From a virus, in IMG/VR virus record IMGVR_UViG_3300045988_159010: a stretch of 64,000 nucleotides of DNA; one strand, written 5' to 3'. Made by a program: the position numbers and the translations under genes. A model generated the notes under the pieces. That model saw only the letters and a program-made list of their open reading frames with translations, ran no database searches and was not told the origin of the DNA. Positions 6,946 through 50,442 of this stretch are shown here, one piece after another (position 1 is the first letter of the stretch; each line of letters opens with the position of its first letter).

Positions 6946-7338
6946 AAATGCAATGAACGAATTTGAAACGAGTGGCGCGGAACTGAGGTGTCGATCCCCA
7001 TCCCTTTCATAGGACCACTTGTTTTCAAGACAAGGCTTACCGCCGGGCAAGTTAATTCCGCATATCATAATTGGCTATAGACCCTTAGCTATCTATGATT
7101 TAAATACGCCACAATTACTATGAAGCTTAGCGATACCAATTATTTTAATAAACAAGACTCATTGAAAAGCCAAAATAAAAACGCGGAATTTAGCTTACTA
7201 AATCAGCTAAAAAGAAAAAACTTTTCAAAATATACTTTATTTTCTTTATTATACTTTTTCATCTATTAGTAATAAATAAGTATTGTAGAGCCTTTACAGG
7301 CAAAAGTTTGCTGAAAATGAGTCTTAATACGTATGGCA

Positions 7339-7419
7339 TAGGAGCAAGGGATTCGAACCCTGGATGTGCAGCTACAATTAGTTTTGGAGACTAACCCAAT
7401 CGACCACTCTGGCACTCCT
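7339..7419 (-). tRNA. tRNA with anticodon loop CUCCAAA (anticodon CCA, Trp-like) and an unusually long variable arm
   Basis: reverse complement gives 7-bp acceptor stem with two G-U pairs, stem TTAGT/ACTAA around loop CTCCAAA, T-arm GGGTTCGAATCCC; no encoded CCA. Confidence 0.4.
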
Positions 7420-7427
7420 ACATATAA

Positions 7428-7859: not shown

Positions 7860-8051
7860 TATTTTCTCCTTAACAATTTTAACAAAGCCCTAAAATCATT
7901 TGCTGGATTTGAACCAACTCTAAAAAATTTTTGCAGAATTTCTTATTTATCCTATTAAAAATTGCTGTGTGGGCTTTTCATAAAACATTATTAATTATAC
8001 TCATTTAATCAATTAGCGTTACCCAAGATACACCACGTGGAGGTTTGATTA

Positions 8052-8122
8052 ATGTATCTCTTGCGGGAGTGGGATTCGAACCCACGATAACCAGTTTATG
8101 AGGCTGGTGTCTTAACCACTTG
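8052..8122 (-). tRNA. tRNA-Met (anticodon CAU)
   Basis: GCGGGATCGTCAAGTGGTTAAGACACCAGCCTCATAAACTGG...GGGTTCGAATCCCACTCCCGCA; loop CTCATAA. Confidence 0.6.
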
Positions 8123-8189
8123 ACGATCCCGCAATATTAACAAGACAATTTTTATACGTTGCGCTACCAATTACGCTATATCCGATCTT

Positions 8190-8262
8190 CGACCAGACAG
8201 TAGGACTCGAACCTACAACACACGGCTCCCAAAGCAAATTTATAATTGCTGTATTGTCTTTC
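8190..8262 (-). tRNA. degenerate tRNA-like element (T-arm GTAGGTTCGAGTCCTAC present, acceptor pairing poor)
   Basis: T-arm consensus on minus strand but no convincing acceptor stem or anticodon arm. Confidence 0.25.
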
Positions 8263-8267
8263 ATAAA

Positions 8268-8341
8268 TGGTGGAGCCAGAGGGAATCGCACCCTCGACTT
8301 TGAATTAAATTCAACGTTTTCCTACCATAAACTATGTCCCC
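8268..8341 (-). tRNA. tRNA with anticodon UUA (tRNA-Sup(TTA)-like; would decode UAA and by wobble UAG) - candidate suppressor, needs tRNAscan-SE
   Basis: GGGGACATAGTTTATGGTAGGAAAACGTTGAATTTAATTCAAAGTCGAGGGTGCGATTCCCTCTGGCTCCACCA; palindromic anticodon arm TTGAATTTAATTCAA centred on TTA; acceptor 6/7 pairs; CCA encoded. Confidence 0.4.
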
Positions 8342-8415
8342 AAATATGATGGTTATAAAACTTAATCTAATGCAGGCATCAGACTAATAGAACGCTCCAT
8401 CAAGTTCTATGCACC
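8342..8415 (-). promoter_or_regulatory. conserved about 70-nt element upstream of tRNA 8268-8341 containing palindrome ATAGAAC-N10-GTTCTAT (copy 1 of 2)
   Basis: near-identical copy at 9508-9585 upstream of tRNA-Ala. Confidence 0.4.
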
Positions 8416-8445: not shown

Positions 8446-8521
8446 TGGCGGATGCAGAAGGGTATGATCCTCCGACCCATTGATTAACAGTCAATTGCTC
8501 TACCAACTGAGCTATGCATCC
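8446..8521 (-). tRNA. tRNA-Asn (anticodon GUU), CCA encoded
   Basis: GGATGCATAGCTCAGTTGGTAGAGCAATTGACTGTTAATCAAT...TGCATCCGCCA; loop CTGTTAA. Confidence 0.6.
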
Positions 8522-8593
8522 ATATTCATAGGGAAGGCTTCTAGAAAACCCGTGTGCTTACCACCCTACGTGTTTGGAATATATCACACTTAA

Positions 8594-8636
8594 TGGTGGA
8601 ACTTGCGAGAGTCGAACTCGCTTTGCCTCAAGCTCC
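8594..8636 (-). ncRNA. 43-nt tRNA minihelix (acceptor stem plus T-arm plus CCA, no D or anticodon arms)
   Basis: GGAGCTTGAGGCAAAGCGAGTTCGACTCTCGCAAGTTCCACCA: acceptor GGAGCTTG/CAAGTTCC, T-stem GCGAG/CTCGC, loop TTCGACT. Confidence 0.3.
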
Positions 8637-8659: not shown

Positions 8660-9331
8660 TTAATAAGAAATAATTTTTTCCCTATTAATTAATTTATATT
8701 TATGAGAAGTTAATTTTTTATGACAAATAGGACATAATATGATTAAATTCTCTAATTCATTGTGTTCTCTATTTTCATTAATATGATGAACTTCTAAAAT
8801 ATCTTTATCTTCATCCCAACCACAGATAGCACATTTATGAGGATAATATTTAAAAGCATTTTTACGATAAGTATATATACTTTCAATATTATTTCCATAA
8901 TGATTTGGTTGAATTTCTTTCAAACCAAACTCTATCCGTTGAGCTAAATCTTTATGTTCTCTACAGCAAAAATATATTCCACTTTTTGAATTATTCAATT
9001 TAGAATTTGGACGAATAAATTTCTTTCCACAATAAGCACATTCTAATTCAGTTCTATTTGCAGAAAATTTTTCATTTTTCTTTTCTTCTGAACATTTAGG
9101 GCAAGAGCATCTTACTTCTTTTGGACCTCGCATAAAACATTCTGCGGATGCTTGAAAAACAATATCATGAATATTGCATTTTAAATCTATTGGTTTAGAT
9201 TTTCCTTTATATTCACTTATAACAAAATATTTATCCCCTACACATTCATAAACTCTTTGTTCAAATTCTTCTTGAGTTAATTTTCTAGGCATTTGATTCA
9301 ACTCCTTTTTTCCTTCTATTATATTTAGCAA
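8660..9331 (-). CDS. HNH homing endonuclease (223 aa)
   Basis: HHINENREHNELENLIILCPICH HNH motif plus Cys-rich Zn fingers; embedded in tRNA array. Confidence 0.7.
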   Translation of the reverse strand: MLNIIEGKKELNQMPRKLTQEEFEQRVYECVGDKYFVISEYKGKSKPIDLKCNIHDIVFQASAECFMRGPKEVRCSCPKCSEEKKNEKFSANRTELECAYCGKKFIRPNSKLNNSKSGIYFCCREHKDLAQRIEFGLKEIQPNHYGNNIESIYTYRKNAFKYYPHKCAICGWDEDKDILEVHHINENREHNELENLIILCPICHKKLTSHKYKLINREKIISY

Positions 9332-9431
9332 AATTTTTGAGGAGTTTAATTAACTTTGCCCGATTTTTATTTTTGTCCACTATTAGCATTACCCATCATC
9401 TACCTCGTGGCGGTTGTGGATCTTAGATGAC

Positions 9432-9507
9432 TGGAACACATGAGAATCGAACTCATCTGCTTTTCTCCTTGCAAGGGAGACGACCACTCCATGCAGTCCC
9501 GTGCCCC
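9432..9507 (-). tRNA. tRNA-Ala (anticodon UGC) with G3:U70 identity pair
   Basis: GGGGCACGGGACTGCATGGAGTGGTCGTCTCCCTTGCAAGGAGA...ATGAGTTCGATTCTCATGTGTTCCA; loop CTTGCAA. Confidence 0.55.
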
Positions 9508-9585
9508 AAATATGATAGTTATAAAACTTAATCTAACCAGATTAATAGAACGCTCTATCAAGTTCTATGTAACAAAATCGCTTAT
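9508..9585 (-). promoter_or_regulatory. second copy of the conserved palindrome-containing element upstream of a tRNA
   Basis: CCCCAAATATGATAGTTATAAAACTTAATCTAA...AATAGAACGCTCTATCAAGTTCTATG matches 8342-8415. Confidence 0.4.
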
Positions 9586-10708: not shown

Positions 10709-10785
10709 TGGTGCAGGATATTGGATTCGAACCAATGACCTCTTGGGTGTAAACCAAACGCTCTAACCAACTGAGCTAATCCCGC
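10709..10785 (-). tRNA. tRNA-Val (anticodon UAC), CCA encoded
   Basis: GCGGGATTAGCTCAGTTGGTTAGAGCGTTTGGTTTACACCCAAGAGGTCATTGGTTCGAATCCAATATCCTGCACCA. Confidence 0.65.
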
Positions 10786-10991: not shown

Positions 10992-11124
10992 TGGTGCGCC
11001 AGGCGGGGATCGAACCCGCGTTGCCCTGCTTATGGTGCGGAATATTGGATTTGAACCAATACATTAAAATGCTACTTACATCAATTCCACAAAGGCAGGT
11101 GCCATACCACTTGGCCACTGGCGC
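10992..11124 (-). tRNA. tRNA-Gln (anticodon UUG) interrupted by a 58-nt tRNA-like insertion in the anticodon loop (insert about 11032-11089)
   Basis: Outer gene GCGCCAGTGGCCAAGTGGTATGGCA-CCTGC-CTTTG[insert]AA-GCAGG-GCAAC-GCGGGTTCGATCCCCGC-CTGGCGCACCA has a perfect acceptor and Gln-type D-arm; the insert GTGGAAT...TTGGTTCAAATCCAAT-ATTCCGCACCA has its own acceptor-like stem and T-arm. Confidence 0.45.
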
Positions 11125-11475
11125 ATATCGCATTTTAGAGGTTCCGGACCCTCCTGAGCAGCGTCACTCAAATAAGATTTTGCCACCTAACCTTTAAAAT
11201 CTTATCAAAAAACAAACCGGTTTTTTAGCTGAACCTTTAACTCCCTTTCCGCTTTTACTTATATGTCAAGAAACAGCCAAAGAGTAAGTATAAAAAGACA
11301 ACATATGAAGAATTTGTTTATAGACAAGCTTCAAACACTCGTCTTGCGGCCATATTATTTTATAGTCAAGTAAGTAATAACTTCAACCGCATTTCTTTAA
11401 CTTAAATAACCTTTAATAATAGTCCTATGTTAAATAATTAGTTATGGGCGACTATTATTTCCCAGCTTTAATTAA

Positions 11476-11545
11476 TCCTTCTATTGGAATTGAACCAATA
11501 CCTCTACCTCTTTCAGGCAGCATGCTTCCATTACACCAAGAAGTA
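11476..11545 (-). tRNA. tRNA-like locus, anticodon not assignable by eye
   Basis: T-arm ATTGGTTCAATTCCAAT on minus strand; acceptor 6/7; anticodon arm ambiguous. Confidence 0.3.
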
Positions 11546-11629: not shown

Positions 11630-11659
11630 TGGTACCGGTGAAAGGATTCGAACCTTCAC
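11630..11659 (-). ncRNA. tRNA 3'-half fragment (T-arm plus acceptor 3' strand plus CCA) without a 5' half
   Basis: GTGAAGGTTCGAATCCTTTCAC-CGGTACCA; no complementary GGTACCG upstream. Confidence 0.25.
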
Positions 11660-11669
11660 ACCTTATATA

Positions 11670-11945
11670 TTAAATATTTTTCCAATCTTCATCAGAAATT
11701 TTTTTAATTTTTAATGACTAATAAGGTAAATCATAATTTTTACACCATTTTCTGACAGCATTATCAGAAACTTCATACATTTTCCCTATAGTTACAAATG
11801 GTGTAGTTCTAATTAATTCTTTTAAAATTTCTCTATCTGGAGATTTAGAATTTTGTCTAAATTTAGATGCACAAGATTTACATCTAATAGCTTTTAAACA
11901 TATCTCTTTTCCACAATCACAACAATAATTTTTCTTTTGAATATG
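11670..11945 (-). pseudogene. orphan C-terminal fragment of a homing-endonuclease-like DNA-binding domain (Zn finger CxxC...CxxC plus HTH), no start codon, abuts tRNA-Leu
   Basis: frame ...CCDCGKEICLKAIRCKSCASKF...MYEVSDNAVRKWCKNYDLPY-TAG-SLKIKK... begins inside the tRNA with no ATG/GTG/TTG plus RBS. Confidence 0.25.
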
Positions 11946-12030
11946 ATTGGTGCGGGATGAGGGACTCGGACCCTCACACCTGTCGGCCTCACCGTCTAAA
12001 GATGAGTTGTCTACCTATTCCAGCAATCCC
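11946..12030 (-). tRNA. tRNA-Leu (anticodon UAG), type II, CCA encoded
   Basis: GCGGGATTGCTGGAATAGGTAGACAACTCATCTTTAGACGGTGAGG...GGGTCCGAGTCCCTCATCCCGCACCA; loop TTTAGAC; 85 nt. Confidence 0.55.
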
Positions 12031-12483
12031 GCGTATTTACCGATATTTGCTCCACTATTTCCATTTTGAATTGAATGACAATTAGGACATAAAATTTGTA
12101 GATTATTTAAATCATTATCAAAATGGTTTCCATTTTTATGATGTAATTCTAAAGGTAATTTAATTCCTTGCCACATAGAAATACCACAAATTTCACATTT
12201 GTCTTTTTTCAATCCATCTTTTACTAATTTTTGTCTTAAAACAGAAGAGCTAATATACTTATGATTATCAATATAATAAATAGCTGGCTTATAACATCGA
12301 GGATTTTTATTCTATCCTTTTTTATAAGGCTATCCCTTATATTCAATATTCATTTTCTCCAAATAAGAATTTAAAGTTTCAGGTTTACAATGCAACTATT
12401 CACATATATAACGTTTAGATTTTTCTTCGTTTATCCACTAACGAATTTCTTTTTCTTTTTCTAAAATATCTGAACGAGCCATA
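12015..12483 (-). CDS. HNH endonuclease (about 155 aa) with four in-frame TAG codons; 3' end overlaps tRNA-Leu
   Basis: AAAGGAGAGATTGTT-ATG; MARSDILEKEKEIR-TAG-WINEEKSKRYICE-TAG-LHCKPE...-TAG-...-TAG-...KDKCEICGISMW...ELHHKNGNHFDNDLNNLQILCPNCH (HNH); track shows only the last 65 aa. Confidence 0.55.
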
Positions 12484-12812
12484 ACAATCTCTCCTTTCAT
12501 AATATATTAGAAATTAAAAATTATTCATTAATGGAATTGAACCAAAAAATTTTCAGTTCAATTCCATTCGCCTATGCCATTCGGCTACACCGGCTTATGG
12601 TGGAAAGAAGTATTTCACCTTTTATAGCACGCTTCTCCCCGTTCCCGTGCTACCTCTCTCCCAATTAGCTTGATTACAAGAGGATTTCATTATGAAGTTC
12701 ATCATAACTACCCGATTTCCCTTTGCCTCAGTTTATTTTTAATTGGTCTATTGCCAACGGCAGGTGACTAATCTGCCTAGTTCAAATCGGAAACCCCATG
12801 TGTAAGACCAAA

Positions 12813-14829: not shown

Positions 14830-14988
14830 TATTGGAATATGGTGCTCCCGTCGGGATTTGAACCCACATCTGGCGATTTGGCCCAAAATGTTAGATTTGA
14901 ACTTACATCTTTCTTGCGCATAAACTATTTTACCATTTAAACTAATTTTGGATAAGTCGCCGGCTCTGACCAATTGAGCTACGAGAGC
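14830..14988 (-). tRNA. tRNA (Ile-like, anticodon UAU if spliced as CTTAT...AA) interrupted by about 73-nt insertion (about 14879-14951) in the anticodon loop
   Basis: GCTCTCGTAGCTCAATTGGTCAGAGCC-GGCGA-CTTAT[insert CCAAAAT...ATTTTGG]AA-TCGCC...GTGGGTTCAAATCCCGACGGGAGCACCA; insert has terminal 7-bp inverted repeat and an internal GTTCAAATC T-loop-like motif. Confidence 0.4.
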
Positions 14989-15079
14989 ATTTATTTAATT
15001 TCTTATTGATTACTTATATATTATATTATATTTTTTTAATTTTTTCAAATTAAGAAATTTACCCAAGACTTTTTATACT

Positions 15080-15154
15080 TGGCTCCAAGGAAGGAATTTG
15101 AATCCTTATTTTCAGAATTAACTCTGATGAATTATCCAGTTATTCGACCACGGA
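15080..15154 (-). tRNA. tRNA-like gene with palindromic anticodon arm TCAGAGTTAATTCTGA (possible UAA-anticodon Leu or degenerate)
   Basis: T-arm AGGATTCAAATTCCT, CCA encoded, acceptor 6/7; anticodon loop apparently 6 nt. Confidence 0.3.
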
Positions 15155-15260
15155 AAAAAGTTTAAGTTGCTGTAAAAGCCTTTCTCTTTTCATATAAATA
15201 TTATATAATATTTTTTATTAAAAATCAAATAATTATTTTATTCAAACAAGACTTATTTGG

Positions 15261-15345
15261 TTTGGTTCCGCTGGGTTTAACCGCTTCCCTACCTCCGCCA
15301 TATAGTGGTGGGGAGGGCAGGATTCGAACCTGCGTAGCATTCGCG
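15261..15345 (-). ncRNA. rearranged tRNA halves: a 3'-half (T-arm plus CCTCCCCACCA) lies upstream of a 5'-half-like segment (GGCGGAGGTAGGGAAGCGGTTAAACCC)
   Basis: T-arm GCAGGTTCGAATCCTGC plus CCA at 15306-15333 with no 5' partner; 5'-half-like sequence on the wrong side. Confidence 0.2.
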
Positions 15346-15423
15346 ACGGATTTACTGTCCATTTCTTTGCTGTTAAAGTCTTTATTTTCTTTATTTTGTA
15401 TATATATTATATATTAATTTTTA

Positions 15424-16125
15424 TTAAATATCAAATTTATAAATTTTTTCTTGTGAATGATTATCAATAATTTCAATTAATTCATTAAGATAATTTTTAT
15501 TTTCTGCAACTTTATCAATTTCAATAGCTAAATTTAAAGCTGTATAACTAAAAGAGAGCTATTCTTTAATTCCAGGAATTTTTTTTATTTCTTCAGTAAA
15601 TTGCTATAAATTACTTTTATTCAAATAAAAATTTCCCAACAATAAAAATAAATTAGTTTTACCATTAATTAAAAAATAAATCTAATCTAAAATTTTCCAA
15701 AATTGTTTATCTATTTTTTTAAAATTATTAAATAGTAATTTTAAACAATAATTTATATAACTAATATTTTGTTCAAAATTAAAATTATTAAAATCAGTGT
15801 ATATTAACTAATTATCAAAATTATAATTATTATTAATAATCTACAATAATAATTTATATCTATTAATAAAAATTTTATCTTGAATTTCCATAATTTTATA
15901 TAATTCTATACCTTTATATTGTTTTAATATATCTTTATGTAAAATATACTTTTGAAATAAATATTCATAAATAGATAAAATCTAAATATCCATATCATAT
16001 TTTTGAAAGTTTATATTTTTATAATCACTTATACAAAATAAAATATTATTTTGTATAAGATACATATAATATATTTTACAATTATATATATTTTCAATAA
16101 ATGTTTTTAAATTATAATGGTTCAT
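15424..16125 (-). CDS. Asn/Ile/Lys-rich hypothetical protein (about 233 aa) with at least 7 in-frame TAG codons; last gene of the rSAM cassette
   Basis: continuous frame MNHYNLKTFIENIYNCKIYY...KYDMDI-TAG-ILSIYEY...IEIIDNHSQEKIYKFDI-TAA only if TAG is sense; start assignment uncertain. Confidence 0.35.
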
Positions 16126-16762
16126 TCCTACCAGTTCCACTACATGTGCCAGTACAACTTGTGCATAATCCAGAACAACTTCCTCCACACAATCCAGTAC
16201 AATCGTTAGCACAATGTCTTGTACAGCTACCGCTGCATCCGCTACACCCAGTCTGGCATCCACCTGAGCAAGAACCACTGCATCCATCACAACTGCCACT
16301 ACAACTGCTTCGACATCCGCCTCTGCAAGTGTTTTGGCAGCCTCCTTGGCAAGTATTCTTACAACTGCCTAAACAAGTTCCCTGACATTGTACTCCACAA
16401 CTTTCACTACAACTAGTAGAACATAATCCAGTGCAATAAGCTGAACATCCAGTATTCGAATCAGTTAATCCCATAGCTTGATAAGCTGTAATTTTTGCCT
16501 CTAATGTACTTAAATCATCATCTTTAATAACATTTATATTTTCATTCTGATTTTCAATATTTATTGCCGCCATAGGTTCTACCAGTTTTGTTATATGTTC
16601 TTTTGAAATAACTTTTCCATTATTAGGCTAAGTAGTATAATCATAAGAAGTCCCTCCATATGAACTTACACTACCTATATATTTACGACGTAAACATTCA
16701 GCCTTTATTTTTTTCTTTAATTCATTGAATCTATCAGAAGTTATTGTCGTGCCTATTTTCAT
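16112..16762 (-). CDS. Cys-rich repeat protein (about 216 aa): about 100-aa N-domain followed by about 28 tandem CxxxC repeats; one in-frame TAG (about 16631)
   Basis: AAGGAGGCAATGACAA-ATG; ...GGTSYDYTT-TAG-PNNGKV...CSAYCTGLCSTSCSESCGVQCQGTCLGSC...CTGTCSGTGRNEPL; immediately downstream of rSAM/SPASM gene. Confidence 0.55.
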
Positions 16763-18074
16763 TTGTCATTGCCTCCTTTATTATATTATATTCATCCTAA
16801 GAGATAATTTTTAATGCTTTTTCCATATCTCCATTAAATTTAAATCGTTTATTCGAGTTTATTTTTTTTAAAATAGAATTTAAATAATATAAAGAAGCTA
16901 GAACTATAGCATAATGCATATCACAAATATAAGTAACTCTTTTATTAACATTACCTGTTTCTTGATAATTATAAGCTGTACACCAAGAGCATCCTCCAGA
17001 AATTTCACAATCTAAACATTTTTGAGGAGATTGACTAATAACTGTTATTTCAGATAAATCTTTTAATCTATTGATGGTTAAATTATCTTGGCCTATTCCC
17101 TAATAAATATCTCCAATATAATATTCTGGCTGATTACTTATGCTATCTTCCATATAACGTAAACAGGGATAATATTTACCTTTCCAATTTAAGGCTAACA
17201 TACGACCATTCCCGCCGCACCAATTATCATTAGATAAATTTTTACTTCCATCATTAATATAAAAAATAGATAAATAAACTTTATCCCACAAATCATTATT
17301 TAATAAATAATCAGCAATTTTTTTTAACTAATAATATAATGTAGTGGCATGGTTAAGTTCCCAACCTTTTTCATACACACAATTTAGATTGATTTGACTA
17401 TAACCATTGTTTATCATTTCTAAAACAGCGTCATATAAATAATCTATATTAAATGGAGAGATAGTCATTTTACTCCCGATCCATTTGTTATAATTATGGC
17501 TATAATGTAATGCGGCGGACAATGCTTTATCATAACTACCACTACCATCAGGGAAAACTCTACAAGCATCATGTAATTTTTTATTTCCATCAATAGAAAT
17601 TGATAAACTTAAATTTTCATTATTTTTTTTAATATACTCTTGTACTTTTGGTTCAAAATATAAAATACCATTAGAACTAATTGAAATTTTATATTTAGTG
17701 ACCCAAGGATGCCGCAATTCAATCATTTTATTAATAAAATAATCAGTAATCTAATCAATTAATTCAATTTCTAAAAATGGCTCTCCACCTATAAATTCTA
17801 TTACTACTCCTGGTATTTTATAAGAGTCAATATAATTAATAACTTTACTGTCTCTTGTTAGTATCTAATCAATCATCTATTTAGCTGTATTAAAGGATAA
17901 TTTATGTTTTCCTTTATGTCCTTGATAACAATAAACACAATTTAGACAACAATCATCTGTAACCTAAAAAGTTAATGTAAATACAGCCTAAGAATTTAAG
18001 CAATCATTAGAATATAAACGACTTATAAAATCAGAAAATTCTTCAGGAATATTAACTATCTTAGGAAATAACAT
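16735..18074 (-). CDS. radical SAM enzyme with SPASM-type C-terminal domain (about 446 aa), about 8 in-frame TAG codons
   Basis: GAGGTAAATATTG-ATG; CxxxCxxC at VTDDCCLNCVYCYQGH; ISISSNG...SISIDGNKKLHD core; C-terminal Cys cluster CGGNGRMLALNWKGKYYPCLRYMED...CLDCEISGGCSWCTAYN; track shows three separated fragments joined only by reading TAG as sense; ends TGA at 16735. Confidence 0.65.
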
Positions 18075-18342
18075 CAATATTTACCTCGTTTGTCTAAAAA
18101 TCTAAATTCCAATTACAAGTTTGATTTCCAATTACTGGTTTAATATAATTATTTTCTAATTCTAATTTAGCTAATTCATATTCAGCAAATAATTCTATAT
18201 ACTCATTATGATAATCATCAAAAGCTTTATTTCTAATATTTTGTCTAATTAAAAATTGACATAAATTTTTTCTAGCTTCAATTTCATAATTTAATTTCTA
18301 AAGATAATTTACTTCTTCTTGAGGAATTATAATCTTCTTCAT
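18061..18342 (-). CDS. small protein (about 93 aa, two in-frame TAG) immediately upstream of and overlapping the rSAM start; possible precursor or partner peptide
   Basis: TAAGAAAGGAATAAAAAT-ATG; MKKIIIPQEEVNYL-TAG-KLNYEIEARKNLCQFLIRQN...NQTCNWNLDF-TAG-TNEVNIDVIS-TAA. Confidence 0.4.
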
Positions 18343-25632: not shown

Positions 25633-26412
25633 TTAGATGCGGTCAATGTTATTTACAGTATCATCCATTTTATCATGCCAGAGAAAAATATCCTCTAATG
25701 GGTCCATACAGTTAAAATAAAAGATATTATGTCTATTTACAAAGCGGTCAACATGATGATGCCCGCTGAGCCACACATCATATGTAATCATATTCTTAAT
25801 AGTTTCAAGCCACTCTTCCATAGATGTATCTACAGTAGATTGGTCTACTACTGAAAGAAATTTATCAACTGGCCTAAGAGAATAAGGGCAAGTGTGCGAG
25901 AGCACAAGGTCAAAATGCTTGTTAGTCTGCCGAATAAGTCTCTCTACTTCTGACTTCTCTGCATCAGTCAACTGCTCATCTTCCCACCAGAGCAGATTAT
26001 TTTTAAGACGGTAATATTTATCAACAGAGTAAGCCCCGCAGATGACCAACGTGCGATATTCTCTATCTTCTGTTTTAAGATAATAAACCCCATAATTATC
26101 AAAATATTTAATCAAAGGGTAGGCCGGCTCATACCATACGTTAGCTTGGACATTACTATCCCAAATGCGTTCCATACCTTCAACATTCTCAGGACGTACC
26201 TCATGGTTACCACGCACGCAATAGATAGAATATCCAAACTGGCTTGCATACTTTTTCTTCATATCATCCCGGAATGTATTGCCACTATTGAAACCTACAT
26301 CACCAAGGATAATAATTGCGTAGTCTTTTGGATTTAAAATTCTAAACATTCTTGCGTTAAGCCATGTGAAATCGCCATGACAATCGCCTCTAATCAGATA
26401 GTCCTTGAACAT
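25633..26412 (-). CDS. calcineurin-like metallophosphoesterase (259 aa)
   Basis: GDCHGD, LGDVGFNSG, RGNHE motifs. Confidence 0.65.
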   Translation of the reverse strand: MFKDYLIRGDCHGDFTWLNARMFRILNPKDYAIIILGDVGFNSGNTFRDDMKKKYASQFGYSIYCVRGNHEVRPENVEGMERIWDSNVQANVWYEPAYPLIKYFDNYGVYYLKTEDREYRTLVICGAYSVDKYYRLKNNLLWWEDEQLTDAEKSEVERLIRQTNKHFDLVLSHTCPYSLRPVDKFLSVVDQSTVDTSMEEWLETIKNMITYDVWLSGHHHVDRFVNRHNIFYFNCMDPLEDIFLWHDKMDDTVNNIDRI

Positions 26413-26425
26413 TAAAGGTCCCTCC

Positions 26426-26617
26426 TTACGTATTTTCTTCTTTAGCCAACTCTTCCTTTAATTCTTCTACTTTTTCTATAACTGCACTAAGCACAACAGC
26501 TTGAGCACCAAATCTGGTAAAATGTTCAGTCAGCCATTTACCAAGATCATCAAAATTATTTTCAATTTCTTCAATATCTCGACTATCAATTTCAATAGTC
26601 ATATTATCTTCAGACAT
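26426..26617 (-). CDS. small acidic protein (63 aa)
   Basis: ORF. Confidence 0.4.
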   Translation of the reverse strand: MSEDNMTIEIDSRDIEEIENNFDDLGKWLTEHFTRFGAQAVVLSAVIEKVEELKEELAKEENT

Positions 26618-27425
26618 TTAACATTTCCTTTACAATTCTTTTTTTCATAATAAGATAAACAATCTTATTCATAAAATCTTCAAGCTCTTCATTACCTTCA
26701 TCCTTGGTCTTAGAACAATAATCATCAGCTACTCTTGTAATATTACTAATAGCAGTATTGGCTACAATTCGTGCAGTTTCAAGATTATAATGATAATTTT
26801 TTACATCAAGAAGATAATCACCCATTGGGGCTTGAAGACAATCTGCATATTTAACACCATCAATATAACGTCCAAGGTATCTTTCAATACGAAGTAGATG
26901 CATAAGCTGCTTGCTATCATAACCATATGTATCAATCAGATGGGCCTTAGTAGGATATCTATGTTCCATTGCATGGTATTTTTCCATAGCAATACCCTTC
27001 ATTGTCTTAACTGCCTTGTAAGGATTATAGCGTGCAATAGCTTCACGCTCATTAAGCAGTGCCTGCCACTCATTCCAATACGTACTTGATGCCATTTTAT
27101 AAGGCGTGAAGATACATTCAAGATAAGCCATATTCTGTTTCTTCAAACAATCAATAAACAAACGAATATCTTTAAAATCAATATGTTCATCATTAGGAAG
27201 AATCTTGGTATAAGATACCGGCTTCTTATTCAATACAATATCTTCAAATGAAGGAAGAACAATAAGGCGGGTATCTACATCAGAATTTTGAGTATCAAGA
27301 CCATAATTCTGGCTACCATAAGCCATTAAACTAACCCAATTTTCGCTTCTAATATTAGCTGCTTCTAAATGAGTTTCTACCTTATCCATAACCCATTTAT
27401 CTGAATGGTAATTCATAATTATCAC
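26610..27425 (-). CDS. Pol-beta-superfamily nucleotidyltransferase (271 aa)
   Basis: YGSQNYGLDTQNSDVDTRLIV matches hG[GS]-x9-13-DhD NTase signature. Confidence 0.5.
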   Translation of the reverse strand: MIIMNYHSDKWVMDKVETHLEAANIRSENWVSLMAYGSQNYGLDTQNSDVDTRLIVLPSFEDIVLNKKPVSYTKILPNDEHIDFKDIRLFIDCLKKQNMAYLECIFTPYKMASSTYWNEWQALLNEREAIARYNPYKAVKTMKGIAMEKYHAMEHRYPTKAHLIDTYGYDSKQLMHLLRIERYLGRYIDGVKYADCLQAPMGDYLLDVKNYHYNLETARIVANTAISNITRVADDYCSKTKDEGNEELEDFMNKIVYLIMKKRIVKEMLNV

Positions 27426-36879: not shown

Positions 36880-39003
36880 TTAGTTCTCCTTTTTAAAATC
36901 AAAAATTGTTTTTAATTCTTCTACTTTATCGAGCTGTTCCCAAGGGCTATTGCATTCAATGCGACCAAAATGACCGAAGCAAGCATAGGGCAGATAACGA
37001 GTATGCTTTAAATCAAATTTATGAATAATACTGCGTGGTGCAAAATCAAATGTCTGATTAACTGCATCAAGAATTTCAGCAATAGGTTTCTTCTCTGTGC
37101 CAAAACAATTAATATCAATAGATGCAGGTTCTGTCTGCCCAATGATATAAGCAACTTGAATCATGCACTTATCGCAAACGCCAGAAGCTACAAGATTTTT
37201 AGCTACATAACGTGCCATATATGCACCACTACGGTCTACCTTACTGGGGTCTTTGCCGCTAAAACAATTGCCTGTAATAAAAACTCGATTATTATATCTT
37301 AATACAAGATTATGAGAAGGTACATTAATACAATACATCCAAGGATCATTATCTTCATAATCTTCAATAGTTAGATTGGCAATTGAAGAACCTGAAGTTC
37401 TGAATGGAGTAGAATATTTATATTTACCTTGTCTTACTTCATAACAAATACTTCTACGAGTATAATTTTCACTGAATGTTTCACCTATTCTATCATCAAT
37501 AGAAAAATGAGAAGATGTGCCATAAACTGCCATAAAAATAAATTGAATAAAATCGGCTTCATCTTTATGTGTGGTTCTAAAAACACAATCTCTATCTCCA
37601 TCCCATTTAATTACTTCATCAGCAATTATTTGAGCTTGATGCAAATTGCATTTAGATAAACATTCATTCATTTTTTTATTTACGAAGGAAGGCTTATACC
37701 AAAAAATACTACAATCATTATCTGGGGTTTCCTTATAATCAAGTCCTGTTGAAGCGAATAGTTTTCTTAATGCCTCTTTTTTATATTTCTTTTTAACTCT
37801 AATTCTTCCAGTCCATCCTGAATTCTCTTTTAGAATAGTACCATCTGCACAAAATGCTACTTGAAGTCTAATTTCATCATCAGTTAAATCAAGGCCAGGA
37901 TTATCCTTAAAATCATAAGTAAAATAAATAGGGATTTGAATACTTCTAAACCCATTATTTTTATAATAATAGTCTAAAATTTCTTGACAAGTTTTCTTCT
38001 GATAATTTCCTTTAGATGTTTTATAGAGAACATTATGATTATCAGATAATATCATATCCAATGATTTATTAGTAGCAATATGATACATTTTAGTTTTAGG
38101 TAGCCTTACAAATTCACCATTAACAAATGAAATCTTGCCATCATCCCATTGAGCTACTTTATCATCTGAAGAAAATTCAGAGATTTTTTTCCACCCATTA
38201 AGGGTTAAAAATTCTGTATCTCCATTTACGCATCCACCACCATGCGGAGCGTAGCCACCATATGTATCTACAACGATTTTACGTCCTGTTAATCCAGTAT
38301 CAGCCTGGGGACCGCCCTTCACAAACTTACCTGTTGGGTTAATATAAAATTTACAATCTTTTTTAATGGCATAACCTTGAAGGGCAATATTACAAATGTT
38401 CGTAATATCGGGCGTTATTTCCTTAATACTATACTTGTCTTTGTGTTGGGCCGATACGACAATTGTATCTACCCCTTCAAAGTTGCCATCATCATCGTAT
38501 TGGACAGTTATCTGGCATTTGCCGTCAGGTAATGCCCAAGGTAGCAAATCATTTTTATACTTACTAAACATAATGACCGAGATATTGTTAGCAAGTTGCT
38601 GAGCGATAGGCATATAATTTTCTGTTTCATTGGTTGCATAACCAAACATCATGCCTTGGTCGCCAGCACCATCCCTATCAACACCCGCAGCGATGTCAGG
38701 GGATTGATTTACTACATTAATAATATATGAACAAGTGTCGCAGTTAAATCCTGCTTCATCATTGTCATAACCAATAAATCTTAAAGTCTCTCTTGCAATT
38801 TCCTGATAAGGAATAGATTGTTCTGTTTTAGCTGTAATTTCTCCCATAATATGGAAGATGCCTGGGCTAATAGTACATTCACAAGCTACTCGTGCATCAG
38901 GGTCAAGCTGGAGGACATAATCCAGAATAGCATCACTTACCTAATCACAAACCTTATCAGGGTGACCGGCAAAAACACTCTCACTGGTAAATAAATAACT
39001 CAT
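36880..39003 (-). CDS. metK: S-adenosylmethionine synthetase (MetK) interrupted by an intein; one in-frame TAG (38941-38943) aligning with conserved Gln
   Basis: GGAGGAAATATTAT-ATG; N-terminus [30 protein letters not shown] versus E. coli GHPDKIADQISDAVLD; GAGDQGMMFGYATNET; C-extein CFSGKDPSKVDRSGAYMARYVAKNLVASG...QVAYIIG...YACFGHFGR; host split at HGGG^(A/C)FSGKD. Confidence 0.7.
37267..38232 (-). mobile_element. intein (about 322 aa) with LAGLIDADG-type homing-endonuclease domain inside metK
   Basis: starts CVNGDTEFLTLNG (block A), contains LQVAFCADGTILKE, ends ...VLRYNNRVFITGN followed by Cys plus-1 (CFSGKD). Confidence 0.55.
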
Positions 39004-44569: not shown

Positions 44570-45979
44570 TTAATTATCCTCCAGAGTCATTTCTTCTTCA
44601 ATTTCTTCCATGTCCGGCACTTCGGCATCAACCTTAATTAGATTCTCAAGTACCTTAAAATTATAAGATTTATCTTTTGCAACGTCGAAACGTGTACCAT
44701 TCATCTTGCGAATAACTACACCTTCAATTACATGAGAAGAATCAATCGTAGAAGGAATATCCTCATACTTGGCAATCCGTGCGAGGAAATCCTCTTCAGT
44801 GGTGTAGATGAAACGTTCCAGTTCAGGCACAGTTTCAAAACCCATCTGTTCTGCACGCTGCTTAACAAGGTCCCAAGGATATTCAATTACTACACCTTCA
44901 GGAGTAGTATAAGTCATACGGTAAACAAAATAGCGGTTAAGCGGTCTTTCTTCATGAGTACCATCACCATAAGTGTAATAACCAGTTTCAGTACATCCAT
45001 AAGAAAAAGTGGTAGTCTTACCATACTGCTTAATAAATTGCTTATCTTTTGTTTTAGTATTATCTCCACGAGACATAATAGGAACTGCACCGCCATAATT
45101 ATCTTTGTAGAAGCCTGCAATTTCACCGAAGCATTCCTCATTAGGCAGAAGCTTACCCTTGAAACGCTCGCCCCAAGCCTTACGGAAGTCATCATTGCCA
45201 TAAAAGCCGCCGGTGCTATTGTTAGTAAGGACAGTGCGGCGAGTACCAATCAGATAACGCATTTCAGTTTTAGGGGTAAGGTGAGACTGTGCGGACATAC
45301 GCCACTTCTTCGGCAGCCAGTTGCTATGTGCAATAAGCTTGGTAAGGAAGAAACCGTTTTCGCCAACAATTGCAGTCTGATATGCGTTTCGAGAACTGGT
45401 ACCATGGACCTTCTCGGTCAAGCAGATAATGTCGCCCGGCTTAAACATATCCATATTAAAACGAAGCTGGGGAGTATCAATATGTTCTGCGAAGAATGGA
45501 TACTTAATGCGGCATTTCTTTGCAGACTTATGGTTGTGTTCGCCGCGTGCAGTAGACTCTGAAACTCTGGGCTTATGCATCGGCACATACTTCTCGGCGA
45601 TTACATGACCATTGAAGGTAGATACAATATCACCTTCGGCCAGATTACTGATGTCACCAAAAGGTGTAAGGCAAGTAAGTGGAAGGATAAGACCTTCGGA
45701 CTTATTACCGCGAAGACGAATTGCACCAATATTACGCTTCACAGGGTCAATGAAACCGCCCGCCGGATTACCATTCTCATCCTTGCGGCGGAAGAGGTCA
45801 TTTGCCTTACCAAACTCTTCACTAATTTGACCATCCGTGGGGAAATAGACGTAGAGGTCATTTTCATTCACGGATTTATCAACAATGGTAGTAATACCAA
45901 ATACTTCACAGGCATTCAGACGATTAGCATTCTCCGCAGGTCTAATGTTTTTTACTTTACAAACATATACATTATACAT
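44570..45979 (-). CDS. ATP-dependent RNA ligase-family nucleotidyltransferase (469 aa)
   Basis: motif I KVHGTS (KxHGT), motif IV EGVVIRK; N-terminal extra domain. Confidence 0.55.
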   Translation of the reverse strand: MYNVYVCKVKNIRPAENANRLNACEVFGITTIVDKSVNENDLYVYFPTDGQISEEFGKANDLFRRKDENGNPAGGFIDPVKRNIGAIRLRGNKSEGLILPLTCLTPFGDISNLAEGDIVSTFNGHVIAEKYVPMHKPRVSESTARGEHNHKSAKKCRIKYPFFAEHIDTPQLRFNMDMFKPGDIICLTEKVHGTSSRNAYQTAIVGENGFFLTKLIAHSNWLPKKWRMSAQSHLTPKTEMRYLIGTRRTVLTNNSTGGFYGNDDFRKAWGERFKGKLLPNEECFGEIAGFYKDNYGGAVPIMSRGDNTKTKDKQFIKQYGKTTTFSYGCTETGYYTYGDGTHEERPLNRYFVYRMTYTTPEGVVIEYPWDLVKQRAEQMGFETVPELERFIYTTEEDFLARIAKYEDIPSTIDSSHVIEGVVIRKMNGTRFDVAKDKSYNFKVLENLIKVDAEVPDMEEIEEEMTLEDN

Positions 45980-47466: not shown

Positions 47467-47930
47467 GCAAGGGCCTCCAAGTATTTATCTACTGTTTTAG
47501 TATAGTCGGCATAATCAATCTTTGTATTCCACTTCTGGATATCGGCAAGAATGGCGTCAATGGTTGTAAGAGTAGGTGCGTCGCCATAGTTAGTAGTATC
47601 TACTTCAAATGTGGTTTTAGGAGCAGGCTTAGGGGCGAGTGAGAACTTTTCGCACGCTGCGATATTTTTCTTGAAATTCACTTTTCCATAATTGCCCATA
47701 GTGCCAAGGCAGTAGAGGTTGTCGCGGTCATTAGGGTTAATCATATAGGCGTACATGCAGTCGGGCAGTAGCTTGTGATAGGGGTCATATTCTTTAAGGC
47801 AGTAAATGGTAGTAGCATTAAGTCCGCCCTTGGTGAGTAGCTTCTTTTGGAACTCATTACCATTAAGGACCCAGACTTTTAAGTTGTTGTAGCTACCAAC
47901 TTCGCCATTCTGTTCACGATAATTTGGCAT
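47463..47930 (-). CDS. hypothetical protein (155 aa)
   Basis: ORF. Confidence 0.4.
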   Translation of the reverse strand: MPNYREQNGEVGSYNNLKVWVLNGNEFQKKLLTKGGLNATTIYCLKEYDPYHKLLPDCMYAYMINPNDRDNLYCLGTMGNYGKVNFKKNIAACEKFSLAPKPAPKTTFEVDTTNYGDAPTLTTIDAILADIQKWNTKIDYADYTKTVDKYLEALA

Positions 47931-48145
47931 TTAAGATTTTCCTTTCTTATCTTTTATCTTATATATATTTTATCAAATTTTTTTATATTTTTCCACTATT
48001 TATAAAACCAATAGGTATATTTTTATTTCAACTTATATCAATTAAACTTGTTATAAATTACTTAAAATTTTTTGGGCCACCGCGGTTAAGAATATTGATT
48101 TAATTTTTATATATAGTAGATTAATAAAAGAAAAGGAGAATATAT

Positions 48146-48296
48146 ATGCCAAGTAAACGTGAAGGCTATCATAATATTGCAACTCGTGTTAAGGATGAAG
48201 AGAAGGCACGTATTGATGAATTCTGCAAAGAAAATGATATGAGTGTTTCGCAATTAATTAGAAAAGCCATTAAAGAATATATGGATAAGGAGAAGT
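48146..48296 (+). CDS. ribbon-helix-helix (CopG/Arc-like) DNA-binding protein (50 aa)
   Basis: AAAAGGAGAATATAT-ATG; MPSKREGYHNIATRVKDEEKARIDEFCKENDMSVSQLIRKAIKEYMDKEK. Confidence 0.5.
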
Positions 48297-48485
48297 AATA
48301 TAACAAAATGCCAAATACAAAGATTATTTATTCACTAAAAGTCCATATTTATCTTCAAGGGTTAGGATTTAAATATATTATTGAAATGTAGAATCCTCAA
48401 TATGAATGGTTAAATTGCTGGGTTTATGAAGAAACGCCTGATTTAATGTAGGCTCTTGATACGTATTTCAAGGAGGTACAAAATA

Positions 48486-49008
48486 ATGATAAAAGAATTT
48501 AAAGATACTCCTTGTTTAAAGAATAGTGGTATTATTTATGAAGATACATTTAAATCAGCAAAAGAACTATATGAATTAGACCCTGTTAGAGGGGGAGAAT
48601 TAGCTATGGCTATATTAGAAGTAGCTATGACTGGTGATTATAGTAGTGATGATGCTATGTTTAAAATTATATTAAATCCATTTATTACATAGACTAATAA
48701 GACAGATTAGACTTATAAGAAAAAGAAAGAAGAAGGCAAAGCTAAACAAGTAGCTGAATTATCATTAGATAAAATTGCTGAATATTATAATTAGGGTATG
48801 ACATAGAAATAGATTTCAGATAGATTACATGGGGCTATTACTCAACAGACAGTAAGTGCTCGTTTAAAAAAGATTAAAGAAATGTATCCTGAAATGATAA
48901 ATGAAGAAGAACATAAGAAAAATACAAGTAAAGCGAAGGTTTTACAAGATGAAAAATCTTGTATACAAGACGAAAATGCTTGTAAAAAGGCGGATTTTAA
49001 TTTTTAAG
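48486..49008 (+). CDS. HTH DNA-binding protein (about 173 aa) with six in-frame TAG codons; 3' end runs into the iteron array
   Basis: AGGAGGTACAAAATA-ATG; ...ILNPFIT-TAG-TNKTD-TAG-TYKKKKEEGKAKQVAELSLDKIAEYYN-TAG-GMT-TAG-K-TAG-ISDRLHGAITQQTVSARLKKIKEMYPEMINEE... (HTH) ...KKADFNF-TAA. Confidence 0.45.
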
Positions 49009-49330
49009 CTTGTTTTACAAGGATAGGAAATTTTTGCTTGTAAAAGTTCTTGTAAAAATCTATTTTTACAAGCAATTTTGCTTGTAAAAAATTTTTGCTT
49101 GTAAAATGCTTGTAAAATTTTAAATGAAAGACTTGATTTTTACAAGCAATTTTACAAGCATTTTTATCTACTCCTTGTATTACAAGCATTTTTATTTATT
49201 TTACAAGCAATTTTTACAAGCAATTTTAAATGTTTACAAGAAAATGGATTTTTACAAGCGATACAAGCACAATAAGAATATAAATGTAAATAAGTATTGT
49301 TTGTAAAAGTTTGTATGCTTCGCATACAAG
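49008..49330. repeat. iteron array: about 16 copies of 10-bp unit TTTTACAAGC / GCTTGTAAAA in both orientations within about 320 bp
   Basis: direct reading of repeated units spaced about 10-20 bp. Confidence 0.6.
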
Positions 49331-50440: not shown

Positions 50441-50442
50441 CC

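What the first reader, a model, noticed from the sequence alone, without database searches (positions are those of the whole stretch)
8268..8341. tRNA with anticodon UUA (possible ochre/amber suppressor) and no CUA-anticodon tRNA found in the array
The anticodon loop and its reading:
- The 74-nt gene (CCA-encoded) has a palindromic anticodon arm TTGAATTTAATTCAA.
- Folded canonically this gives loop ATTTAAT with anticodon 5'-UUA-3', which pairs with UAA and, by U34 wobble, UAG.
- In a genome where TAG is sense but TAA is clearly used as a stop, an unrestricted UUA suppressor would be paradoxical.
- So either U34 is modified or restricted, the arm folds differently, or this is not the decoding tRNA.

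What I could and could not find elsewhere:
- I found no tRNA with a CUA anticodon in the 7.3-15.4 kb array.
- The only CUA-loop-like sequence (TTCTAGA at 8549-8555, next to the minihelix 8594-8636) lacks a complete cloverleaf.
- The dedicated TAG decoder may lie outside this window.
- A second tRNA-like gene (15080-15154) has a similar palindromic arm TCAGAGTTAATTCTGA.
Basis: partly seen in the sequence, partly recalled or inferred. Interest (0 to 1): 0.6.

Follow-up and report, generated by a model that had tools for sequence, protein, structure and literature searches.

The report
Alanine-type phage tRNA with short anticodon arm
A gut phage that reads the stop codon TAG as glutamine carries a conserved tRNA-like gene that would have a stop-reading UUA anticodon only in a non-standard fold. 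It looks like an alanine tRNA, its anticodon arm is two bases too short, and recoded relatives do without it, so it is very unlikely to be the missing TAG decoder.

Summary
A tRNA-like gene does lie at 8268-8341, on the minus strand, with CCA encoded (Rfam tRNA 48.5 bits; default ARAGORN misses it).

- **Anticodon arm.** It has 15 nt instead of 17. The covariance model aligns 5 bp plus a 5-nt loop (UUUAA). The loop AUUUAAU with anticodon UUA appears only if the last A-U pair opens, which leaves a limb one layer short.
- **Conservation.** Six variants from about 150-214 kb human-gut phage contigs keep every stem through A-U, G.U and G-C changes.
- **Identity.** Acceptor end GGGG...CUCC-A with G3.U70 matches the phage's own tRNA-Ala. 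The same conserved ~70-nt leader directly precedes both genes.
- **Code.** TAG is sense and means Gln (log-odds +7.1, against -13.7 for Ala). TAA ends 64 of 88 gene models.
- **Dispensability.** Three TAG-recoded relatives lack the gene: one precise deletion, one chimera, and one with no tRNA in the 20 kb examined.
- **CUA decoder.** None was found in the window, in 10 kb beyond its left end, in about 8 kb beyond its right end, or in the related loci scanned. About 100 kb of the genome was not examined.

Verdict: an accessory alanine-type tRNA paralogue or mimic, not the TAG->Gln decoder. A weak Ala-inserting suppressor is not excluded. The surrounding array holds more striking tRNA oddities.

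The parts
8268..8341 (-). Non-canonical tRNA-like gene, 74 nt. Acceptor GGGGACA/TGGCTCC with G3.U70 (8339/8274) and a constant A5.G68 mismatch (8337/8276). D arm GTTT-ATGGTAGGA-AAAC. T arm GAGGG-TGCGATT-CCCTC, with G where U55 is usual (8289). Discriminator A, then encoded CCA (8268-8270).
   Evidence: Rfam RF00005 48.5 bits. ARAGORN calls it only at -ps80. Six sequence variants keep all stems.
8300..8314 (-). Anticodon arm of 15 nt, TTGAA-TTTAA-TTCAA, with loop UUUAA at 8305-8309. The alternative fold is 4 bp plus the loop A-UUUAA-U, with UUA at positions 34-36.
   Evidence: Covariance-model alignment with two loop positions deleted. ARAGORN alternative fold. The fourth stem pair changes A-U -> G.U -> G-C among relatives, and the innermost A-U pair and the loop never vary.
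8342..8412 (-). Conserved ~70-nt leader that abuts nt 1 of the gene: CATAGAAC..GTTCTAT hairpin, a variable hairpin, then AGTTTTATAACCATCATATTT.
   Evidence: Nearly invariant in relatives, and kept in L004 where the tRNA is deleted. A second copy directly precedes tRNA-Ala in the same arrays.
9431..9569 (-). Paralogous unit used for comparison: a second copy of the leader (about 9509-9569) followed by tRNA-Ala(UGC), GGGGCAC..., at 9431-9508.
   Evidence: tRNA-Ala of relatives reads GGGGCTT...AAGCTCCACCA.

Best explanation
This is an accessory, alanine-type paralogue of the phage's tRNA-Ala whose anticodon arm has lost two nucleotides. It is a tRNA mimic, or at best a poor decoder, and not the UAG->Gln decoder.

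**Shown**
- It lies on the minus strand inside the phage's array of tRNAs and tRNA-like RNAs.
- Its first nucleotide abuts the same conserved leader that precedes tRNA-Ala, and its CCA end is encoded.
- Its stems are kept by pair-preserving substitutions.
- Apart from the 15-nt anticodon arm, a G at position 55 and a constant A5.G68 mismatch, its cloverleaf is standard.

**Inferred**
- It is probably released from a polycistronic transcript by tRNA-processing enzymes.
- G1-C72, G2-C71, G3.U70, G4-C69 and A73 make it a substrate for the host alanyl-tRNA synthetase, which ignores the anticodon.
- With the A-U pair closed, the loop has 5 nt and cannot present an anticodon.
- With that pair open, the loop AUUUAAU would present UUA on a limb one base-pair layer too short. 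Any reading of UAA or UAG would then be inefficient and would insert Ala.
- Its selected role therefore more likely depends on tRNA shape or aminoacylation than on reassigning a stop codon. Candidate roles, none tested, are a processing signal in the array transcript, a decoy or ligand for tRNA-binding proteins, or a low-level Ala suppressor.
For: - **Structure.** The covariance model gives 5 bp plus a 5-nt loop. ARAGORN needs a relaxed threshold and a non-standard junction to read UUA.
- **Constraint.** Six variants show only pair-preserving stem changes: the fourth anticodon-stem pair A-U/G.U/G-C, T-stem 49-65 G-C/G.U/A-U, and acceptor 2-71 G-C/G.U. Between the window and the L006 lineage the gene is 90.5% identical. 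Canonical tRNAs between the same two lineages range from 60 to 97%, and the spacers are poorly alignable.
- **Alanine ancestry or identity.** Positions 1-4, 69-73 and the CCA are identical to the phage's tRNA-Ala. The same leader precedes both genes. In L034 the gene follows a tRNA-Ala remnant directly.
- **Not the TAG decoder.** TAG aligns with an invariant Gln column (118 of 120 homologues). Log-odds are Gln +7.1 and Ala -13.7. L004 has the gene precisely deleted yet keeps in-frame TAGs, up to 7 in one gene. L009/L012 carry a chimera whose acceptor strands no longer pair. L033 has no tRNA in 20 kb yet 1-8 TAGs in most genes.
- **An efficient UAA reader would be costly.** 64 of 88 gene models end in TAA, as do 20 of 21 in L033.
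Against: - The loop AUUUAAU has U33, a purine at 37 and U38, as expected for an ochre suppressor derived from tRNA-Gln (own knowledge of E. coli tRNA-Gln loops). The loop is invariant in all variants.
- The anticodon stem shows a compensatory change, which a pure acceptor/T-arm mimic would not need.
- Ribosomes tolerate some non-standard tRNAs, so decoding cannot be excluded from sequence alone.
- The covariation statistics are weak. There are six variants at 96% mean identity, and 53 of 500 shuffles do as well.
- G3.U70 alone is not decisive. The window's tRNA-Val(UAC) also has G3.U70, with C2-G71.
- No concrete non-decoding function is demonstrated.
- Relatives that lack the gene at this site could carry a copy elsewhere in their genomes.
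Confidence: 0.5

Rival explanations
1. It is a working ochre/amber suppressor. The terminal A-U pair opens on the ribosome, UUA reads UAA and, by wobble, UAG, and it inserts Ala (or Gln through anticodon recognition). Efficiency would be low to moderate, for example for programmed read-through or to disturb host termination.
For: - ARAGORN at a relaxed threshold folds it as tRNA-Stop(tta) with U33 and A37.
- The loop is invariant and the adjacent stem pair covaries.
- The genome is TAG-recoded and no CUA tRNA was detected.
- TAG suppressors were detected in only about 40% of TAG-recoded phages, which the authors attributed to possible non-canonical tRNAs (Borges et al. preprint).
Against: - The anticodon limb is one layer short, or the loop has 5 nt.
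- There is a G at position 55 and an A5.G68 mismatch.
- The acceptor is alanine-type while TAG means Gln.
- TAA ends 73% of gene models.
- The gene is lost in TAG-recoded relatives.
Confidence: 0.25
2. It is the phage's dedicated UAG->Gln decoder, the code-15 suppressor, in a non-canonical guise.
For: It is the only gene in the array whose loop can be read as complementary to a stop codon. U34, U35, A37 and U38 resemble a tRNA-Gln loop (own knowledge).
Against: - A73, G1-C72 and G3.U70 are alanine determinants and run against Gln identity.
- L004 and L033 lack the gene where examined and still use TAG heavily. L009/L012 carry only a chimeric copy, but their TAG use was not checked.
- UUA would also read the main stop codon, TAA.
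Confidence: 0.07
3. It is a decaying tRNA duplicate with no function, still recognisable only because the array module spread recently.
For: - It deviates from the tRNA consensus in three ways.
- It has been lost repeatedly.
- Its thermodynamic fold is no better than that of shuffled sequence, z = -0.17.
- The covariation statistics are weak.
Against: - Every stem substitution preserves pairing, with G.U intermediates observed.
- It is 90.5% identical between lineages whose radical SAM proteins are only ~65% identical and whose spacers are poorly alignable.
- All 24 non-chimeric copies retrieved are intact.
Confidence: 0.13

Closest known systems
Phage-encoded suppressor tRNAs of stop-codon-recoded gut phages (Sup-CUA, Sup-UCA, and occasional Sup-UUA predictions)
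   Same: It is encoded in the tRNA array of a low-GC, ~185-kb human-gut phage that uses TAG as Gln. Read with a 7-nt loop, its loop is complementary to stop codons. Surveys tabulate TAA suppressors and note that many recoded phages lack a detectable TAG suppressor. Lak phages were reported to carry several suppressor types.
   Different: It has a 15-nt anticodon arm, an alanine-type acceptor and no CUA anticodon. It is dispensable in recoded relatives. The standard detector does not call it.
tRNA-Ala and other alanyl-tRNA synthetase substrates defined by G3.U70 (including minihelices and the tRNA-like domain of tmRNA)
   Same: It has G1-C72, G2-C71, G3.U70, G4-C69, A73 and CCA, identical to the phage's tRNA-Ala. 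It also shares that gene's 5' leader.
   Different: The D arm, anticodon arm and T arm are unrelated in sequence to tRNA-Ala, and there is no UGC anticodon. Unlike tmRNA it has full D and anticodon arms and no message-like part. The tmRNA models score far below threshold.
E. coli ochre suppressors such as supB (tRNA-Gln UUG->UUA), from own knowledge
   Same: The loop would be N-U-UUA-A-U, which reads UAA and more weakly UAG.
   Different: Those suppressors keep a canonical 17-nt arm and Gln identity. This gene has neither.
tRNA mimics of the Y-RNA-like YrlA type
   Same: It is a tRNA-shaped RNA without a usable anticodon loop. A YrlA-like RNA lies immediately 3' of it (Rfam 29 bits, below threshold; covariation).
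   Different: The target has free 5' and 3'-CCA ends in the normal order. It is not permuted and has no basal stem.

Membership tests
Canonical elongator tRNA (Rfam RF00005 cloverleaf) | Covariance-model score above the curated threshold | tested here: met
   48.5 bits against 29.
Canonical elongator tRNA (Rfam RF00005 cloverleaf) | 5-bp anticodon stem closing a 7-nt loop with U33 and a purine at 37 | tested here: not met
   The arm has 15 nt. The model aligns 5 bp plus a 5-nt loop. A 7-nt loop is possible only with 4 Watson-Crick pairs and no nt 26.
Canonical elongator tRNA (Rfam RF00005 cloverleaf) | T loop T54-U55-C56-R57-A58 and a fully paired 7-bp acceptor stem | tested here: not met
   The T loop is TGCGATT or TGCAATT, with G at 55. 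A5.G68 is unpaired in all six variants.
Canonical elongator tRNA (Rfam RF00005 cloverleaf) | Stems supported by covariation | tested here: inconclusive
   Two pairs have double changes and none is broken by substitution, but 53 of 500 shuffles do as well.
Code-15 suppressor tRNA (decodes UAG as Gln) | Anticodon able to pair with UAG in a functional loop | tested here: inconclusive
   UUA appears only in the non-canonical fold.
Code-15 suppressor tRNA (decodes UAG as Gln) | Glutamine identity consistent with the inferred meaning of TAG | tested here: not met
   TAG means Gln. The acceptor end is alanine-type: A73, G1-C72, G3.U70. The Gln identity rules are from own knowledge of E. coli GlnRS.
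Code-15 suppressor tRNA (decodes UAG as Gln) | Present wherever related phages use in-frame TAG | tested here: not met
   L004 (deleted) and L033 (no tRNA in the 20 kb examined) still carry in-frame TAGs. L009/L012 carry only a chimeric copy; their TAG use was not checked.
Code-15 suppressor tRNA (decodes UAG as Gln) | Demonstrated aminoacylation and decoding | not testable with these tools
   Needs tRNA sequencing, proteomics or reporter assays.
Alanyl-tRNA synthetase substrates | G3.U70 wobble pair with A73 and G-C pairs at 1-72, 2-71 and 4-69 | tested here: met
   Present in all variants, with G2.U71 in L030. Identical to the phage's tRNA-Ala. Caveat: the window's tRNA-Val also has G3.U70.
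Alanyl-tRNA synthetase substrates | Actual charging with alanine | not testable with these tools
   An in vitro or in vivo aminoacylation assay is required.
tmRNA (one-piece or permuted) | tRNA-like domain joined to a tag-encoding message and pseudoknots | tested here: not met
   Only 18-24 bits against the permuted tmRNA model, whose threshold is 47, and the match covers just the T arm. ARAGORN finds no tmRNA.
Ochre suppression or TAA reassignment | In-frame TAA codons in conserved genes | tested here: inconclusive
   All 88 gene models, which were built with TAA and TGA as the only stops, end in TAA (64) or TGA (24), and in-frame stops usually follow within a few codons. Long TAA-read-through frames are explained by adjacent genes in the same frame. 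No homology test of extensions was done.

The most novel reading that the evidence does not exclude
The truncated anticodon loop may be deliberate. In that reading the gene belongs to a phage system that cuts and re-joins tRNA anticodon loops.

The same genome has three relevant features:
- tRNA genes interrupted inside the anticodon by CCA-ended mini-tRNAs;
- permuted Y-RNA-like tRNA mimics;
- an ATP-dependent RNA ligase, an RlaP-type nucleotidyltransferase and a metallophosphoesterase.

The 5-nt loop of this Ala-type RNA would be opened, extended and resealed after transcription. That would create a functional stop-codon decoder only once the phage enzymes are made, giving a timed switch for the genetic code.
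Probability: 0.05. Interest if true: 0.9.

Novelty: new variant of a known kind. Interest (0 to 1): 0.45.

Why it matters
Most TAG-recoded phages have no detectable amber suppressor, so any stop-complementary tRNA in such a genome is a candidate answer. This candidate looks like an alanine-type mimic rather than the decoder, which keeps the question open for this phage clade. It also shows that anticodon calls in these arrays cannot be trusted without checking the fold and comparing relatives. Two further tRNAs here were mis-called because mini-tRNAs interrupt their anticodons. If the RNA is charged with alanine and does enter the ribosome, it would be a natural alanine-inserting stop-codon reader in a phage.

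Tried and rejected
- **Close phage relatives.** Megablast of 25 kb against the 50,697 deposited phage records found no match. A tblastn search with the radical SAM protein found only relatives at 36% identity or less. No annotated complete relative could therefore be scanned.
- **Isotype by similarity.** blastn of the 74 nt against phage records matched only T arms of unrelated tRNAs: Phe, Gly, Ala and Arg. Global alignment to all tRNAs of the related loci found no close paralogue.
- **TAG = Ala.** I considered this because of G3.U70. The alignment columns reject it.
- **ARAGORN's alternative call.** It reported a tRNA-Lys with a 69-nt intron across 8191-8341. I rejected it because the acceptor stem has G.G mismatches and the supposed 3' half belongs to the Y-RNA-like element.
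- **Two-piece tmRNA.** Rejected because the scores are far below threshold and the cloverleaf is complete.
- **The arm as a repeated motif.** The 15-nt palindrome does not occur more often in the window than chance predicts.
- **More distant homologues.** Three pattern scans of viral contigs and one of metagenomes returned only this narrow clade. A scan of 185,579 bacterial and archaeal species genomes found nothing.
- **Theta-ribozyme paper.** A search of its supplements for these sequences found nothing.
- **The TTCTAGA element.** Rfam on 8515-8600 gave no hit, so calling it a theta ribozyme remains an inference from its position.
- **Right end of the window.** One exact-protein look-up there failed.

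Full report
**What is at the coordinates.** All tRNA genes of the window lie on the minus strand. The reverse complement of 8268-8341 is GGGGACATAGTTTATGGTAGGAAAACGTTGAATTTAATTCAAAGTCGAGGGTGCGATTCCCTCTGGCTCCACCA.
- The Rfam tRNA model scores it at 48.5 bits against a threshold of 29, with E = 2.6e-7 for the whole window.
- Default ARAGORN does not report it.
- The covariance model aligns a normal acceptor stem, D arm, nt 26, 4-nt variable loop and T arm. In the anticodon arm it aligns UUGAA/UUCAA as the 5-bp stem and deletes two loop positions, leaving the 5-nt loop UUUAA.
- ARAGORN at -ps80 calls tRNA-Stop(tta). To do so it removes nt 26, uses a G.A pair at 27-43 and accepts a 3-nt variable loop.

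Both descriptions are the same molecule. Either the loop has 5 nt, or the loop is AUUUAAU and the anticodon limb is one stacking layer short. Two further deviations are a G at T-loop position 55 and a constant A5.G68 mismatch. The minimum-energy fold is not a cloverleaf and is no better than shuffled sequence, z = -0.17. That is common for tRNAs and carries little weight.

**Is it a real, maintained gene?** Pattern scans retrieved the gene from viral and metagenomic contigs of 150-214 kb, several of them labelled human gut.
- 24 non-chimeric copies fall into six sequence variants.
- The substitutions are: the fourth anticodon-stem pair A-U -> G.U -> G-C; T-stem pair 49-65 G-C -> G.U -> A-U; acceptor pair 2-71 G-C -> G.U; and nt 26 (G/A), nt 15 (U/G) and nt 57 (G/A), which vary in tRNAs generally.
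- No substitution breaks a pair, but with six variants the shuffle control is weak: 53 of 500 shuffles do as well.
- The gene is 90.5% identical between the window and the L006 lineage. Their radical SAM proteins are about 65% identical, canonical tRNAs range from 60 to 97%, and the spacers are poorly alignable.

I conclude that it is under structural constraint, with moderate confidence.

**Genetic code.** The 446-aa radical SAM maturase gene at 16734-18080 (minus strand) has eight in-frame TAGs, and an HNH gene has six.
- Among 120 homologues, one TAG column is Gln in 118 and another in 80.
- A log-odds calculation over 109 more distant homologues gives Gln +7.1, Glu +3.9 and Ala -13.7.
- Of 88 minus-strand gene models, 64 end in TAA and 24 in TGA.

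**Identity of the RNA.** Positions 1-4 and 69-73 (GGGG...CUCC-A, with G3.U70) and the CCA are the same as in the phage's own tRNA-Ala(UGC), GGGGCTT...AAGCTCCACCA.
- The ~70-nt leader that abuts nt 1 of the target (8342-8412) occurs a second time in each array, directly in front of tRNA-Ala. In the window that copy is at about 9509-9569, before 9431-9508.
- In L034 the target follows a tRNA-Ala remnant directly.

The simplest reading is a diverged duplicate of the leader-plus-tRNA-Ala unit that has kept the part alanyl-tRNA synthetase recognises. That G3.U70 is the major alanine determinant and that AlaRS ignores the anticodon is established knowledge, not tested here. One caveat is that the window's tRNA-Val(UAC) also has G3.U70, next to C2-G71.

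**Is it the TAG decoder?** Three relatives argue against it.
- L004, from a 179-kb contig, has the tRNA precisely deleted while the leader and the downstream RNA remain. Its genes still carry in-frame TAGs, seven in one gene.
- L009/L012 carry a chimera in which the 5' two-thirds is fused to the T arm and acceptor strand of another tRNA, so the acceptor stem cannot form. Their TAG use was not checked.
- L033, from a 168-kb contig that shares an identical 113-aa protein with the window, has no tRNA in 20 kb. Yet it has 1-8 TAGs in most genes, and 20 of 21 genes end in TAA.

Together with the alanine-type acceptor and TAG = Gln, this makes the decoder role unlikely. No CUA tRNA was found in any of these places:
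- the window;
- 10 kb beyond its left end and about 8 kb beyond its right end;
- the related loci L001-L008 and L011-L020.

About 100 kb of the genome remains unexamined.

**Mis-called neighbours, which matter for the "no CUA" claim.** Two long ARAGORN/Rfam hits are tRNAs interrupted inside the anticodon by mini-tRNA-like inserts. Each insert runs exactly from its own acceptor nt 1 to an encoded N73-CCA.
- An empty site proves this. L002 has the uninterrupted tRNA-Lys loop CCTGCCTTTTAAGCAGG, while L010/L013 has the same body with a 58-nt insert between TTT and TAA.
- Removing the inserts gives canonical tRNA-Lys(UUU) from 10992-11124 and tRNA-Ile(UAU) from 14840-14988. A relative yields tRNA-Glu(UUC) in the same way.
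- None yields CUA.
- tRNA introns, one of which may itself encode a tRNA, were reported as enigmatic in Lak megaphages (PMC6784885; PMC13037316).

- The minihelix at 8594-8636 is the 3' remnant of the tRNA-Ala that is intact in L001. An HNH gene (8660-9331) and a replacement tRNA-Ala lie beside it.
- TTCTAGA lies in the loop of a small hairpin inside a ~70-nt element that is almost invariant. In relatives the element sits directly after the CCA of several different tRNAs and directly before the next tRNA. That placement is the one described for theta (HDV-like) ribozymes (PMC10879173), but Rfam gives no hit there.
- 15080-15154 is embedded in a basal stem with an ACAGCAA motif. It belongs to a four-member family in the window.
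- The member immediately 3' of the target (8135-8262) is a permuted, YrlA-like tRNA mimic. Five of its base pairs covary.

**Mechanism and ranking.**
1. Best supported, about 0.5: an alanine-type tRNA paralogue or mimic that decodes poorly or not at all.
2. About 0.25: a weak ochre/amber suppressor, probably inserting Ala.
3. About 0.13: a decaying duplicate.
4. About 0.07: the true UAG->Gln decoder.

The steps shown are the structure, the conservation, the alanine-type end, the shared leader, the code and the dispensability. Processing, charging by AlaRS and poor decoding are inferred.

Noticed in passing
window 10992-11124 (-), insert 11033-11090; window 14840-14988 (-), insert 14879-14951; L006:19021-19156; L010/L013 compared with L002:2026-2100: tRNA genes are interrupted inside the anticodon, between nt 34/35, 35/36 or 36/37, by mini-tRNA-like inserts. 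Each insert runs exactly from its own acceptor nt 1 to an encoded CCA. An empty-site comparison and in-silico removal give canonical tRNA-Lys(UUU), tRNA-Ile(UAU) and tRNA-Glu(UUC). ARAGORN had called two of them Met(CAU) and Trp(CCA). The same insert sits in different outer tRNA bodies. This suggests excision by tRNA end-processing enzymes followed by resealing by an RNA ligase. Related 'enigmatic' tRNA introns were reported in Lak phages (PMC6784885).
   Followed up: partly
window 8135-8262 (-); also about 7885-7990, 15060-15190 (contains 15080-15154) and 15245-15380 (all -): This is a family of structured RNAs with a basal stem (AAGAC../..GTCTT) and an ACAGCAA hairpin enclosing a tRNA-like domain. 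8135-8262 is permuted (T arm, closed acceptor hairpin, D arm), hits Rfam YrlA at 29 bits (below threshold) and has five covarying pairs. 15245-15380 has T arm, acceptor strand and ACCA followed by the 5' half, like a permuted tRNA gene.
   Followed up: partly
window 8522-8593 (-); window 8005-8060 and 9364-9431 (-): A ~70-nt, almost invariant element containing TTCTAGAA sits directly 3' of the CCA of several different tRNAs in relatives and directly 5' of the next tRNA. Two other spots directly 3' of tRNA-Met and tRNA-Ala give sub-threshold hits to the HDV-like ribozyme model (about 25 bits against 44). All three are placed like theta ribozymes. Rfam is negative for the first.
   Followed up: partly
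window 8594-8636, 8660-9331 and 9431-9508 (-); window 12530-12596, 11670-12506, 11948-12032 and 11630-11664 (-): HNH homing-endonuclease genes are inserted into tRNA genes. Each leaves a remnant of the old tRNA and brings a replacement. One case involves tRNA-Ala. In the other, a class-I tRNA with anticodon UAG (intact in L001:4643-4718) is split, and a class-II tRNA-Leu(UAG) lies inside the insert. These endonuclease genes are rich in in-frame TAG.
   Followed up: partly
window 7334-7421 (-): An 88-nt tRNA has an 8-bp acceptor stem, a short T stem, a long variable arm and anticodon CCA. It resembles allo-tRNA or tRNA-Sec (tRNA-Sec model 38.8 bits against 47). It always lies next to tRNA-Ser(GCU). 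Its anticodon stem covaries among relatives while the loop CTCCAAA stays fixed. Its body type and its anticodon do not match.
   Followed up: partly
window 11475-11545 (-): A conserved tRNA-like gene (36.7 bits) has the loop TGAAAGA, with G at position 33, and no encoded CCA. ARAGORN calls it Phe(AAA). Its anticodon stem covaries among relatives.
   Followed up: no
window 44570-45979, 26610-27425 and 25633-26412 (-): A set of RNA-repair-type genes is present: an ATP-dependent RNA ligase (PF09414), an RlaP nucleotidyltransferase of the RNA repair pathway (PF10127) and a calcineurin-like phosphoesterase (PF00149).
   Followed up: no
window 8342-8412 and about 9509-9569 (-): The same ~70-nt leader (a conserved hairpin, a variable hairpin with compensatory changes, then AGTTTTATAACYATCATATTT) ends exactly at G1 of both the target and tRNA-Ala. 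Its function is unknown. A promoter or a 5'-processing element is possible.
   Followed up: partly
window 47930-50443, densest at 48950-49310: A 2.5-kb stretch has no ORF of 90 aa or more on either strand. It holds more than 15 copies of GCTTGTAAAA/TTTTACAAGC in both orientations, like the iterons of a replication origin.
   Followed up: no
window 16734-18080 (-), 15424-16287 (-) and 36880-38847 (-): There is a radical SAM peptide maturase of the CXXX-repeat-target family with eight in-frame TAGs. Relatives have a Cxxx-repeat target gene next to it. There is also an S-adenosylmethionine synthetase split by a ~340-aa insert that matches PhoH-like and terminase-like phage families.
   Followed up: no
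window 10709-10785 (-): The phage tRNA-Val(UAC) has G3.U70 and A73, with C2-G71. Relatives have G-C at 3-70.
   Followed up: no
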